Assembly: GCA_964610875.1 (NCBI GenBank)
Contig: CAZSWP010000065.1
Span: 1 to 12,578, forward strand
Source: an uncultured archaeon
GTDB taxonomy: Archaea; Asgardarchaeota; Thorarchaeia; Thorarchaeales; Thorarchaeaceae
Direction: 5' to 3'
Length of the DNA stretch: 12,578 bases
The position numbers and the translations under genes were made by a program. Under the pieces are notes generated by a model that was not told the origin of the DNA, ran no database searches, and saw nothing but the letters and a program-made list of their open reading frames with translations. Below, one piece after another: positions 1,293 to 3,710 of the stretch. Within the stretch, counting starts at the first letter, position 1. Every line of letters starts with the position of its first letter.

Positions 1293-2393
1293 ATGAAGGA
1301 TGTGGATGAAGCAGCTGTCTATCGTAATTTGCAAAAACACCTTGATAGCATGCCAGTGGGATTCCCAGCAACCGAGTCTGGCGTTGAGATTCGCATACTT
1401 GAACGATTGTTCACACCACAGGAAGCTCTAATTGCCACACATCTGACTTATTCTTGGACCCCCTCTGAAAGCATTGATGAGATTTATCCGCGATTAGAAC
1501 ATACTGGTATCTCTAGGCGGGAATTGGAAGCTTCTCTTGATATCATGGCTAGTAAAGGACTAATCTTCCGCAAAAAGGGAGAAAGCACTACATATTACGG
1601 TAATGTTCAGTGGGTCATTGGGATCTATGAGTTCCAAGTGAATAAAATGACAGCAGAACTCTACTCCGATATTGTGGACTACAACATGGAAGCATTTGGC
1701 AAAGAGTTATTCTATACTCCATTACCCCAACTTCGAATAATCCCCGTTGGAAAGAGCATAGAGCATACACATATGATTGCTGCATATGACAACATTAGAG
1801 AATTATTGGCCAAAGCCACAGGTCCCTTTATGGTTGCAAACTGTATCTGCCGACAAGCAATGGATGCAGTTGATAATCCATGTAAAGCAACTGATAGACG
1901 AGAAACCTGCATTGCATTTGGCGAGCATGCGCAGATGTATATTGATGAAGACTGGGGTAGAGAGGTAACTAAGGACGAATTAATCGACATCCTTCAACAG
2001 AATGAAGAAGATGGTCTTGTCCTACAACCAAGCAATGCAAGGTCTCTTGACTTCATTTGTAGCTGTTGTGGGTGCTGCTGCGGTATTCTTTTTGGATCGA
2101 AGATGTCTCGGAAACCGGTCAAGTTCTATTCCACCAATTATTTCGCGGAAGTAGACTCTGAACTCTGTACACTATGTGGGACGTGTGTAGAAAAGTGTCA
2201 GATGGAGGCCATTTCACTTGGAGATGATTCAGCAGTTATCGATTTGAATCGGTGTATTGGATGTGGTGTTTGTGTGGCTAACTGTCCTTCAGATGCTATG
2301 ACACTACAAAAGAAAGAAGGAGTGAAAGTCCCACCTAAAACCTCCGAAGAGCTGTATTCAATATTGTTAGAGAAGAAGCAAGAACAAAAATAG
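1293..2393 (+). CDS. Multi-[4Fe-4S] cluster protein (N-terminal wHTH-like region, Cys-rich core, C-terminal 2x[4Fe-4S] ferredoxin domain)
   Basis: Two ferredoxin motifs, CTLCGTCVEKC and CIGCGVCVANCP, plus CICRQ and ICSCCGCCCGIL motifs typical of a widespread anaerobe '4Fe-4S binding protein' family. Confidence 0.9.
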   Translation: MKDVDEAAVYRNLQKHLDSMPVGFPATESGVEIRILERLFTPQEALIATHLTYSWTPSESIDEIYPRLEHTGISRRELEASLDIMASKGLIFRKKGESTTYYGNVQWVIGIYEFQVNKMTAELYSDIVDYNMEAFGKELFYTPLPQLRIIPVGKSIEHTHMIAAYDNIRELLAKATGPFMVANCICRQAMDAVDNPCKATDRRETCIAFGEHAQMYIDEDWGREVTKDELIDILQQNEEDGLVLQPSNARSLDFICSCCGCCCGILFGSKMSRKPVKFYSTNYFAEVDSELCTLCGTCVEKCQMEAISLGDDSAVIDLNRCIGCGVCVANCPSDAMTLQKKEGVKVPPKTSEELYSILLEKKQEQK

Positions 2394-2439
2394 TTGACTT
2401 GGATTATGACAAGAAATGGTGCGCTCGCCGGGACTTGAA

Positions 2440-2471
2440 TTCCCGACCACGTTCGAGAATTGAACGCAGTT
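2440..2471 (-). other. tRNA-Gly intron 2 (32 nt, position 53/54 at the T loop), BHB motif
   Basis: Interrupts CCGGG|TTCAAGT. 9-bp stem ACTGCGTTC/GAACGTGGT, bulges GG|A and AA|T. Central helix CCCG/CGGG is complete only after intron 1 removal. Confidence 0.88.
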
Positions 2472-2476
2472 CCCGG

Positions 2477-2506
2477 TTCCCGACCATATCCGGATTGGAT
2501 ATGATT
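2477..2506 (-). other. tRNA-Gly intron 1 (30 nt, variable loop/T-stem junction, about 48/49), relaxed BHB (HBh') motif
   Basis: Central helix TCCG/CGGG, bulges GC|A and AA|C, 9-bp intron stem ATCATATCC/GGATATGGT. No outer helix. Confidence 0.85.
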
Positions 2507-2579
2507 GCCGGATCCGTGGCAGGGATCCATCATAGCCCCTAGACAACGAGCGCGTGTGGAATTGTTCGAATAGGTGAGC

Positions 2580-2596
2580 GTTAAAAAGTTTGCCGA
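2580..2596 (-). promoter_or_regulatory. Putative BRE/TATA promoter of tRNA-Gly
   Basis: Minus strand reads CGGCAAACTTTTTAAC, with a TTTTTAA box about 28-34 nt upstream of the mature tRNA 5' end. Confidence 0.5.
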
Positions 2597-2675: not shown

Positions 2676-3710
2676 ATGGAGCGAGTTACTTGGATTGACA
2701 TTTCAAAAGCACTTGGCATCTTCTTTGTCATCACAGTGCATGCTATTATTCCTGCAATCAATCCCATAACCATTCATCTGAGTAGCTTTACAATCCCCTT
2801 GTTCTTCTTTATCACAGGGCTTACCTATAGTAATGAGAAGTATCGTGATTCTATCAGTCAATACATCATCAGGCGTGGTAGACGGCTAATGATTCCATAT
2901 TTTCTGCTCTATCTACTGATGATACTGCTTTTCATTCCCTTAGCTGGACTTATTGATACATATCTCACTCCGGACCAACTCATTTTTTGGCTACTATATG
3001 GTGCAGGTCCTCCCGATTCCTCGACTCATCTCTGGTTCCTTCAAGTTTTATTTTTCGGACTTTCTCTCTTTGTAATAATTGACCATTATCTCATAGGTAG
3101 GAGTCGAATTTGGAAAGGTATATTGCCGCCTGTACTTGCTACGGGTACCTTTGTTCTTGATGTACTATTTCAAGAAAGCCTTGTACCATGGAGGCTTGGG
3201 AGTGTTCTTCTCGCAACTGCATTCATTCTAATTGGCAATGAAACACGTTACATCTTTGAAAGATGCGAATGGACGATTCCAGTTCGAGAGTCGTTGATTG
3301 GGATTATCCTTCTCTCTATCACCCTCGTTCTACTCTCTACGATCAATGGTTTTACAGATATGGCTGTAGATAATTATGGGTATAATATTGGTCTATATCT
3401 TGTAAATGGTACACTTGGGTCCGTTCTCATCATATTTTTTGCTAGTCTTCTTTCAAGGGTTTCAAAAATCAATGACATCATGACTCCTATTGGCAATCAC
3501 ACGCAGGAGATTTACGAACTCCACCCTCTTCCTTTTCTGTTGGCTCCTTTCATCATTACCAGCGTACTTGGCGACTCTTTCTACGAACCACTATTATGGG
3601 TTGTAAGATTCACACTCAGTATTCTCATAATCATCCCCCTGGCTGTCTATCTCGTACGGAAGAGTCGATTAGCTCGTTTCATCCTTCGCGGATCATTTGA
3701 AGAGGATTGA
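2676..3710 (+). CDS. Acyltransferase family 3 (OafA/NolL-like integral membrane O-acyltransferase)
   Basis: Motifs RVTWIDISKALGIFFVITVH, FTIPLFFFITG, RRLMIPY and LWFL, with about 10 hydrophobic helices. Confidence 0.9.
   Translation: MERVTWIDISKALGIFFVITVHAIIPAINPITIHLSSFTIPLFFFITGLTYSNEKYRDSISQYIIRRGRRLMIPYFLLYLLMILLFIPLAGLIDTYLTPDQLIFWLLYGAGPPDSSTHLWFLQVLFFGLSLFVIIDHYLIGRSRIWKGILPPVLATGTFVLDVLFQESLVPWRLGSVLLATAFILIGNETRYIFERCEWTIPVRESLIGIILLSITLVLLSTINGFTDMAVDNYGYNIGLYLVNGTLGSVLIIFFASLLSRVSKINDIMTPIGNHTQEIYELHPLPFLLAPFIITSVLGDSFYEPLLWVVRFTLSILIIIPLAVYLVRKSRLARFILRGSFEED

What the first reader, a model, noticed from the sequence alone, without database searches (positions are those of the whole stretch)
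2440..2506. The two tRNA-Gly introns look like homologs: intron duplication/transposition with compensatory changes
Seen: intron 1 is A-ATCATATCC-AATCC-GGATATGGT-CGGG-AA and intron 2 is A-ACTGCGTTC-AATTCTC-GAACGTGGT-CGGG-AA. They share the architecture, the last 10 nt (TGGTCGGGAA) and loops starting AAT. All 9 stem differences are transitions that keep pairing. Both target sites present YCCG before the bulge. Established: tRNA intron transposition has been proposed for Thermoproteales. Inference: one intron re-inserted 5 nt away at a second site complementary to its CGGG, a plausible footprint of reverse-splicing intron gain.
Basis: partly seen in the sequence, partly recalled or inferred. Interest (0 to 1): 0.7.

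Follow-up and report, generated by a model that had tools for sequence, protein, structure and literature searches.

The report
Two sister introns in tRNA-Gly
The only tRNA-Gly(GCC) gene of this Asgard archaeon carries two 30-nt splicing-endonuclease introns 5 nt apart that relatives show to be copies of one ancestral intron, a rare sequence trace of how such introns multiply.

Summary
Window 2417-2553 (minus strand) is a tRNA-Gly(GCC) gene. It has a 30-nt intron after the variable loop (2477-2506), a 5-nt micro-exon CCGGG, and a 32-nt intron between positions 53 and 54 (2440-2471).

In this genome alone the similarity is modest: 9 of 18 stem positions match (p about 0.05). All 9 differences are pair-keeping transitions, which gives a joint p of about 0.001.

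Fourteen related genomes from seven genera of the same family keep both introns at the same sites. There the two introns are more alike: 9-14 of 18 within a genome, 12 of 18 between consensus sequences, and 81 of 87 differences are transitions. The window's pair is among the least similar.

A covariance model built from both introns finds only these two sites in 86 family genomes and nothing at E 0.05 or better in 125 other genomes of the phylum.

The shared layout, the leading A, the AA bulge and the loop motif are common to this genome's introns. CGGG is forced by exon pairing. Only the stem arms carry the signal.

Homology by one old duplication or transposition is well supported. Reverse splicing, and the direction of copying, are not shown. 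The kind of event is known from Thermoproteales.

The scan had already noted this stretch once, for ordered splicing.

The parts
2417..2553 (-). tRNA-Gly(GCC) gene with encoded CCA (2417-2419). It is 137 nt as a precursor and 75 nt after removal of both introns. It is the only Gly-GCC gene found in this assembly.
   Evidence: Sequence. ARAGORN calls the doubly excised sequence tRNA-Gly(GCC). No second copy appears in G000.
2507..2553 (-). Exon 1, tRNA positions 1-47: acceptor 5' strand, D arm, anticodon arm with GCC, and the 4-nt variable loop CGGC. T42-G45 (2509-2512, TCCG) is the exon strand of the central helix for intron 1. G46 and C47 are the two exon bases of the 5' bulge.
   Evidence: Residues 1-47 are 96-100% identical in many relatives.
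2477..2506 (-). Intron 1, 30 nt, between C47 and C49. Layout: A, a 9-bp hairpin with a 5-nt loop, CGGG (2479-2482, which pairs with exon TCCG), then AA.
   Evidence: Model R1 scores it 43.1 bits.
2472..2476 (-). Micro-exon CCGGG, tRNA positions 49-53 (5' strand of the T stem).
2440..2471 (-). Intron 2, 32 nt, between G53 and T54. Layout: A, a 9-bp hairpin with a 7-nt loop, CGGG (2442-2445), then AA. CGGG pairs with C47 + C49 C50 G51 once intron 1 is removed, and with only 3 of 4 positions before that.
   Evidence: Model R1 scores it 45.5 bits.
2417..2439 (-). Exon 3, tRNA positions 54-76: T loop, T stem 3' strand, acceptor 3' strand, A73 and CCA.
2581..2587 (-). TATA-like box TTTTTAA, 28-34 nt upstream of tRNA position 1. 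The motif AAACTTTTTAAC is conserved upstream of the orthologous genes.
   Evidence: from the upstream sequences of the relatives. The promoter function is inferred.

Best explanation
The two inserts are archaeal endonuclease-type (bulge-helix-bulge) tRNA introns of the relaxed HBh' form, and they are paralogues.

One intron was copied to a second site 5 nt away in the same tRNA-Gly(GCC) gene. The exon there offers the same YCCG + 2-nt context, because the exon reads T-CCGGC-CCGGG, a 5-nt quasi-repeat.

The copying happened in an ancestor of much of this Asgard family. Since then both copies have drifted by transitions that keep their 9-bp hairpins.

In the cell (inferred), the 137-nt precursor is transcribed from the TATA box. 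The intron's CGGG pairs with the exon's YCCG to form the 4-bp helix. The two-subunit EndA cuts 2 nt 3' of each helix strand, at C47|A and A|C49, and at G53|A and A|T54. RtcB then joins the three exons.

Removing intron 1 completes the fourth pair of intron 2's helix.

The direction intron 2 to intron 1 is slightly favoured. The route of copying, RNA-level reverse splicing or a DNA-level event, is open.
For: Introns and gene
- Both inserts are exact and removable, and the product is a tRNA-Gly(GCC).
- Local folds give a 4-bp helix, a 3-nt bulge and a 9-bp hairpin.
- The genome has two EndA-domain ORFs and an RtcB. The (alpha-beta)2 broad-specificity type is reported for Asgard archaea (PMC5829648).
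- This is the only Gly-GCC gene in a 95%-complete assembly.

Homology
- Fourteen genomes from genera g1, g3, g4, g6, g7, g8 and g11 hold both introns at the same sites.
- Arm identity within a genome is 9-14 of 18. Consensus against consensus it is 12 of 18, with all 6 differences transitions. Across genomes, 81 of 87 differences are transitions.
- Mean identity between intron 1 and intron 2 copies is 11.5 of 18, close to the 12.8 of 18 found among intron 1 orthologues.
- Different lineages of intron 1 keep different intron-2-like parts. G000, g4 and g6 keep the TGGT end. G021 and G006 of g7 keep TGCATTC...GAATG.
- Both introns share a G-U pair at stem position 4.

Nulls
- Random 9-bp hairpins average 4.9 of 18. 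P(12 or more) = 0.004, and P(12 or more with all differences transitions) = 0.0008.
- 117 pairs of unrelated real introns average 4.7 of 18, with a maximum of 11.

Exclusivity
- Model R1 scores the two sites 36.6-47.4 bits in the intact genes. The best other locus in the 86 family genomes scores 25.6 bits or less.
- No match at E 0.05 or better in 125 genomes of 26 other families of the phylum.

Direction
- Intron 1 has CGGG, which makes a G-U pair with T42. In four scattered genomes plus one degenerate copy it has changed to CGGA, a perfect match.
- Intron 2 always has CGGG, a perfect match to CCCG.
Against: - The sequences are only 30 nt long. In the window itself the arms match at 9 of 18 (p about 0.05).
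- Architecture, the first A, the AA bulge and the loop motif are generic in this genome. CGGG is forced by exon pairing.
- A 600-Mb model search turned up ordinary coding hairpins with similar arms (G075:C158 and G006:C46). That shows what chance can give when many sites are scanned. The comparison here was a single one, fixed in advance.
- No allele with one intron was found, so duplication is inferred from similarity and not seen as a step on a tree.
- Intron 2 is much more conserved than intron 1 (16.6 against 12.8 of 18), and this is unexplained.
- Simple replication slippage or tandem duplication does not yield the observed arrangement in one step (my reasoning).
- There are no RNA data.
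Confidence: 0.78

Rival explanations
1. Two independent insertions look alike by chance and shared constraint. Both must pair with an exon YCCG, which forces CGGG. Both follow the genome's standard 1+9+loop+9+4+2 intron layout with A-rich bulges.
For: Unrelated introns of G000 and its relatives have the same layout, the first A, A-rich 3' bulges and ATTTC-like loops. The window's own pair reaches only p about 0.05 on arm identity. Chance hits with comparable arms exist in coding sequence elsewhere.
Against: The similarity rises in the orthologues (12-14 of 18). 93% of differences are transitions. Both share a G-U pair at the same stem position. The joint empirical p is about 0.0008 for one comparison fixed in advance. 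Unrelated real introns never exceed 11 of 18. No constraint on hairpin arm sequence is known.
Confidence: 0.12
2. Two introns of separate origin were made alike later by gene conversion between the neighbouring hairpins (concerted evolution).
For: The hairpins lie 5 nt apart. Some lineages share states between the two introns, for example T-A at stem pair 8 in G021, G006 and G079.
Against: The diagnostic differences at stem positions 2-3 (mostly TC in intron 1, always CT in intron 2) hold in all but three intron 1 copies. The introns do not group by genome. Conversion needs prior similarity to start. Conversion would itself be a copying event between the two sites.
Confidence: 0.06
3. The gene is a decaying pseudogene, and the inserts are duplication scars that are not spliced.
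For: Decayed or truncated two-intron copies exist in G086, G068 and G083.
Against: It is the only Gly-GCC gene in G000. The exons are intact and form a cloverleaf. The promoter box and CCA are conserved. The hairpins are maintained by compensatory changes across seven genera.
Confidence: 0.03

Closest known systems
tRNA intron transposition in Thermoproteales (Fujishima et al. 2010, Mol Biol Evol 27:2233; as summarised in PMC4090602 and in bioRxiv 10.64898/2026.10.13.758758)
   Same: Endonuclease-type introns with related sequences sit at different tRNA positions. The new site must be able to form the BHB motif with the intron. The host has a broad-specificity EndA.
   Different: - Here the two copies are in the same gene, 5 nt apart, at two turns of a 5-nt exon quasi-repeat.
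- The host is an Asgard archaeon.
- Identity is lower, 53-77% overall. That is below the 80% cut-off at which the preprint found no excess of copying in Asgard archaea.
- The event is old, shared by seven genera.
- I could not read the 2010 paper itself.
Multi-intron tRNA genes of Asgard archaea (Valentin-Alvarado et al. 2024, as cited in the preprint; census in bioRxiv 10.64898/2026.10.13.758758)
   Same: Asgard tRNA genes are heavily interrupted by short non-canonical introns at BHB-competent sites. Gains and losses are repeated, and D-arm introns are often missed by annotators.
   Different: [quoted passage not shown] An intragenic pair such as this one lies outside that test. Its text does not mention this family's likely lineage.
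Relaxed HBh' bulge-helix-bulge motifs of non-canonical archaeal introns (Marck and Grosjean 2003, from my own knowledge; PMC5829648; PMC3241643)
   Same: A 4-bp helix made of exon and intron 3' part, a 3-nt bulge next to an intron hairpin, cuts 2 nt 3' of each helix strand, and no outer exon helix.
   Different: Nothing unusual in the motif itself. The central helices use anticodon-stem bases 42-43 (intron 1) and T-stem bases 49-51 (intron 2), so the tRNA arms must open for the motif to form.

Membership tests
Archaeal endonuclease-type (BHB) tRNA intron | The insert interrupts a tRNA gene, and its exact removal restores a standard cloverleaf. | tested here: met
   Intron-less orthologues fix the boundaries. 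ARAGORN calls the doubly excised sequence tRNA-Gly(GCC), 75 nt. The mature sequence was assembled.
Archaeal endonuclease-type (BHB) tRNA intron | A BHB or relaxed (HBh'/hBH) motif at the junctions: a 4-bp helix, 3-nt bulges and symmetric cut sites. | tested here: met
   - Intron 1: helix TCCG/CGGG.
- Intron 2: helix CCCG/CGGG after intron 1 is removed, and 3 of 4 pairs before.
- A 3-nt 5' bulge sits next to a 9-bp hairpin.
- There is no outer exon helix, so the motif is the HBh' type.
Archaeal endonuclease-type (BHB) tRNA intron | The host encodes the splicing endonuclease EndA, of a type that accepts relaxed motifs, and the ligase RtcB. | tested here: met
   Two PF01974 ORFs of 193 and 210 aa and RtcB at 588 bits. 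The (alpha-beta)2 type with the L1 loop is reported for Asgard archaea in PMC5829648. I did not check the loop.
Archaeal endonuclease-type (BHB) tRNA intron | The intron is removed from the precursor in vivo. | not testable with these tools
Transposed or duplicated tRNA introns (Thermoproteales type) | Introns at different positions share sequence beyond what the motif and chance give. | tested here: met
   - Consensus arms match at 12 of 18, with only transitions. Empirical p is 0.0008.
- Unrelated introns reach at most 11 of 18.
- The two sites are each other's only strong model matches in 211 genomes.
- Overall identity of 53-77% is lower than the 80% or more used in the preprint's test.
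Transposed or duplicated tRNA introns (Thermoproteales type) | The new site can form the motif with the copied intron. | tested here: met
   Both sites read YCCG + 2 nt |, 5 nt apart.
Transposed or duplicated tRNA introns (Thermoproteales type) | A gain is seen on a tree: relatives with the donor intron only. | tested here: not met
   Every intact gene with either intron has both. Presence is patchy, with at least 7 changes on an EF-2 tree of 40 genomes. Paralogy blurs it further.
Transposed or duplicated tRNA introns (Thermoproteales type) | Copies occur in several different tRNA genes of one genome (large-scale spread). | tested here: not met
   No other locus in G000 or the family scores above 25.6 bits.

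The most novel reading that the evidence does not exclude
The pair is a footprint of RNA-level copy-and-paste. An excised intron would be re-inserted by the reverse EndA/RtcB reaction wherever its CGGG finds a YCCG + bulge. The same lineage of intron may also have entered a protein-coding gene. A genuine 30-nt BHB intron in the RNA polymerase A' trigger-loop motif of G007, G022 and G001 shares 13-15 of 18 arm positions and the ATTTC loop with variants of the tRNA-Gly introns.
Probability: 0.1. Interest if true: 0.85.

Novelty: new member of a known kind. Interest (0 to 1): 0.5.

Why it matters
How endonuclease-type introns enter genes is unknown. A 2026 census of Asgard tRNA introns found repeated gains but no route of arrival and no excess of copying between tRNA genes.

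This pair is a concrete, sequence-supported case of an intron copied within an Asgard tRNA gene.

- It has a readable target rule: the same YCCG + 2-nt context, 5 nt downstream.
- It shows later adaptation of the copy to its new site, CGGG changing to CGGA.
- It shows that copies older than about 80% identity, or copies inside one gene, escape the published test.
- It gives a defined substrate for testing reverse splicing in vitro.

It is one example, not a new mechanism.

Tried and rejected
- ARAGORN and Rfam on the raw window found no tRNA, because the introns hide the gene.
- Exact searches for TGGTCGGGAA and GGTCGGGAA in the genome gave no further tRNA-linked copy.
- The search for related loci with a window protein returned only an unrelated bacterial hit and named no organism. 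The look-up of encoding contigs had no record.
- A first genome-wide scan timed out. Collapsing nested intron candidates lost the true boundary of intron 2. It was repeated with all candidates.
- Weak model hits were followed up.
  - G075:C158 and G006:C46 are conserved sequence also present in relatives, so not insertions.
  - G093:C422 stays unresolved.
  - Only the rpoA' hit is a real intron.
  - Its likeness to the tRNA-Gly introns is no better than these chance hits, so I do not count it as a family member.
- The D-loop intron of the same gene was considered as a third copy. It matches at 6-11 of 18 with few transitions and was rejected.
- One-step DNA models were rejected: slippage between the CGGGAA repeats, and tandem duplication of CCGGG + intron. 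Each gives an extra or a missing CCGGG (my reasoning).
- Fujishima et al. 2010 is not held in the library.

Full report
**What is there**

Read on the minus strand, window 2417-2553 is a tRNA-Gly(GCC) gene with an encoded CCA. It is built from five pieces.

| Piece | Window coordinates | Content |
|---|---|---|
| Exon 1 | 2507-2553 | tRNA positions 1-47, ending in the 4-nt variable loop CGGC |
| Intron 1 | 2477-2506 | 30 nt |
| Micro-exon | 2472-2476 | CCGGG, tRNA positions 49-53 |
| Intron 2 | 2440-2471 | 32 nt |
| Exon 3 | 2417-2439 | tRNA positions 54-76 |

ARAGORN and Rfam find nothing in the raw window. Intron-less orthologues read ...CGGATC CGGC CCGGG TTCRAG... and fix both boundaries without ambiguity. 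In a genome-wide scan I excised candidate introns and ran ARAGORN on the products. The doubly excised sequence is called tRNA-Gly(GCC), 75 nt.

A TATA-like TTTTTAA lies 28-34 nt upstream. Its context is conserved in the relatives.

No second Gly-GCC gene is found in this 95%-complete assembly. The gene should therefore be functional.

**The organism**

- The genome is 3.75 Mb in 124 contigs, with 40.7% G+C.
- It encodes an actin at 423 bits. None of the 14 control prokaryote genomes gives a match.
- It has two EF-2 paralogues, two EndA-domain ORFs and RtcB.
- This fits an Asgard archaeon, as earlier notes of the scan said.
- Kaneta et al. report the two-subunit, broad-specificity EndA for Asgard archaea (PMC5829648).
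- I could not name the family. It holds 86 species genomes in 16 genera.

**Check of the observation**

- The two parsed introns are as written.
- Both share the last 10 nt, TGGTCGGGAA.
- The 9 stem differences are all transitions that keep pairing.
- The upstream contexts are TCCG-GC| and CCCG-GG|.

The second context exists only after intron 1 is gone. In the unspliced RNA it is ACCG, which gives 3 of 4 pairs.

Local folds give a 4-bp helix between exon YCCG and intron CGGG, a 3-nt bulge, and the 9-bp intron hairpin. There is no outer exon helix. This is the relaxed HBh' form of the bulge-helix-bulge motif. Both cuts fall 2 nt 3' of a helix strand.

**Is it more than chance?**

I separated what is generic from what is specific.

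Generic features:

- Other introns that my scan recovered in this genome, the D-loop intron of the same gene in relatives, and an intron in rpoA' mostly share the 1 + 9-bp stem + loop + 4 + 2 layout.
- They usually start with A, usually have an A-rich 3' bulge, and often have ATTTC-like loops.
- The CGGG is forced by pairing with the exon.

Only the 18 arm positions are free, so the test rests on them.

| Comparison | Result |
|---|---|
| 7,467 random 9-bp hairpins of the same genome | mean 4.9 of 18 |
| Window's pair, 9 of 18 | p = 0.05-0.07 |
| Window's pair, all differences transitions | p = 0.0019 |
| Window's pair, both criteria | p = 0.0012 |
| 117 pairs of unrelated real introns | mean 4.7, maximum 11 of 18 |

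**Relatives**

Fourteen genomes of the family, in genera g1, g3, g4, g6, g7, g8 and g11, carry both introns at exactly the same two sites. There are also three defective copies: a degenerate one in G068, a decayed pseudogene in G086 and a truncated one in G083.

Within these genomes the two introns match at 9-14 of 18 arm positions, so the window's pair is among the least similar. Further measures:

- The consensus sequences match at 12 of 18, with all six differences transitions.
- Overall, 81 of 87 differences are transitions.
- Overall identity between the two introns is 53-77%.
- Mean arm identity between intron 1 and intron 2 copies (11.5) is almost as high as among intron 1 orthologues (12.8). 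Intron 2 orthologues are nearly invariant (16.6).

Different lineages of intron 1 keep different intron-2-like parts.

- G000, g4 and g6 keep the TGGT end.
- G021 and G006 of g7 keep TGCATTC...GAATG.
- G050 has a 3' arm identical to that of intron 2.

For the consensus pair the empirical p is 0.004 on identity alone and 0.0008 with the transition criterion.

The hairpin is supported by covariation: 98.6% of cells are paired and 7 of 9 pairs change on both sides.

**Exclusivity**

A covariance model built from both introns scores the two sites 36.6-47.4 bits in the intact two-intron genes. The best other locus in the 86 family genomes scores 25.6 bits or less. In 125 genomes of 26 other families of the phylum there is no match at E 0.05 or better.

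**Distribution**

The locus is syntenic with an acyltransferase gene in most genomes, whatever the intron content. The intron content of Gly-GCC varies strikingly across the family:

- no intron
- canonical 37/38 intron only
- a D-loop intron
- D-loop plus canonical
- canonical plus 41/42 (G003)
- canonical plus 59/60 (G019)
- the two introns studied here, with or without the D-loop intron, and never with the canonical one

On an EF-2 tree of 40 genomes, the two-intron genes lie in a crown clade of g1, g3, g4, g6, g7 and g8. Presence needs at least 7 changes.

Tandem remnants in G020 and G086 suggest two old paralogous genes that were sorted differently.

Every intact gene with one of the two introns has both.

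**Direction and mechanism**

Intron 2 always has CGGG, a perfect match to CCCG. Intron 1 has CGGG, which makes a G-U pair with T42. It has changed to the perfectly matching CGGA in four scattered genomes plus the degenerate G068 copy. This fits an intron made for the 53/54 site and later tuned to 47/49, but it is weak evidence.

The exon reads T-CCGGC-CCGGG, so the two insertion points are equivalent positions of a 5-nt quasi-repeat.

One-step DNA slippage or tandem duplication would leave one CCGGG too many or too few (my reasoning). Direct insertion of an intron copy at a motif-competent site gives the observed order in one step. That is compatible with reverse splicing, but nothing here shows it. 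The review I could read calls the mechanism unknown and supposes it proceeds at the DNA level (PMC4090602).

**A lead that did not hold**

The best non-Gly model hits included a genuine 30-nt BHB intron in the RNA polymerase A' gene.

- It splits GEPGTQMTLRT|FHYAGV and has in-frame stops.
- It is present only in G007, G022 and G001, and is absent from G000.
- Its arms match variants of the tRNA-Gly introns at 13-15 of 18.

Two equally similar hits of the same search proved to be ordinary conserved sequence. This likeness is therefore within chance for a 600-Mb search. I report it only as a possibility.

**Comparison with what is known**

The kind of event is tRNA intron transposition, proposed for Thermoproteales by Fujishima et al. 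2010. I know that work through PMC4090602 and the 2026 preprint, because the paper itself is not held.

The 2026 census of Asgard tRNA introns (bioRxiv 10.64898/2026.10.13.758758) reports the following.

- It found repeated gains.
- It found no excess of intron families at 80% identity or more that span different tRNA types.
- It left the route of arrival open.

An old, intragenic pair at 53-77% identity lies outside that test.

**Verdict**

Homology of the two introns is well supported, at about 0.8. The direction of copying is weakly indicated, and the mechanism is open. This is a new member of a known kind, of moderate interest to specialists.

Noticed in passing
L061:104-133 (G007:C117:7983-8012, minus), L062:104-133 (G022:C581:22993-23022), L117:108-137 (G001:C2): A genuine 30-nt BHB-type intron sits inside the RNA polymerase A' gene. 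It splits the conserved motif GEPGTQMTLRT|FHYAGV and has in-frame stops. It has the same 1+9+5+9+4+2 layout as the tRNA introns. It is present in only 3 of 65 family genomes that match this region, and G000 lacks it. Known protein-coding BHB introns are few, for example Cbf5 in Crenarchaeota (PMC2738675).
   Followed up: partly
L005, L016, L019, L020, L022, L025, L027, L035-L040 (Gly-GCC genes of relatives): The same tRNA-Gly(GCC) locus carries at least six different intron positions across the family: D loop, 37/38, 41/42, 47/49, 53/54 and 59/60. The D-loop intron is itself a 30-nt hairpin intron with covarying arms.
   Followed up: partly
L030 (G020:C22 around 23.7 kb), L043:1500-1615 (G086:C107:9438-9551), L042 (G083), L041 (G068): Truncated, decayed or anticodon-altered extra copies of the Gly-GCC gene lie next to or near intact ones. 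This suggests two old paralogous genes with different intron sets and differential loss. G068's copy has CTC in place of GCC in the anticodon loop, and no recognisable 5' part.
   Followed up: partly
G000:C13:33731-34864 (minus): The actin gene (PF00022, 423 bits) contains one in-frame TAA.
   Followed up: no
G000 whole genome: Only about 30 tRNA loci pass the Rfam tRNA cut-off. A scan that excises hairpin introns recovers further interrupted genes, for example Ala-GGC on C9, Pro-TGG with two introns on C25, Leu-CAG with a 53/54 intron on C1, and a two-or-more-intron gene on C89 that ARAGORN miscalls with anticodon TTA.
   Followed up: partly
family f1: Most genomes of the family show two EF-2-like genes: a full-length aEF-2 at about 660-690 bits, and a paralogue that matches only the first 470 or so positions.
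   Followed up: no
Intron 2 is far more conserved across genera than intron 1 (16.6 against 12.8 of 18 arm positions), although both are spliced-out hairpins of the same gene. I have no explanation.
   Followed up: no
window 1293-2393 (+) and 2676-3710 (+): The tRNA gene lies between a 4Fe-4S ferredoxin-domain protein (convergent, ending 24 nt from the tRNA 3' end) and an Acyl_transf_3 protein. The acyltransferase is syntenic with the tRNA gene in most family genomes.
   Followed up: yes
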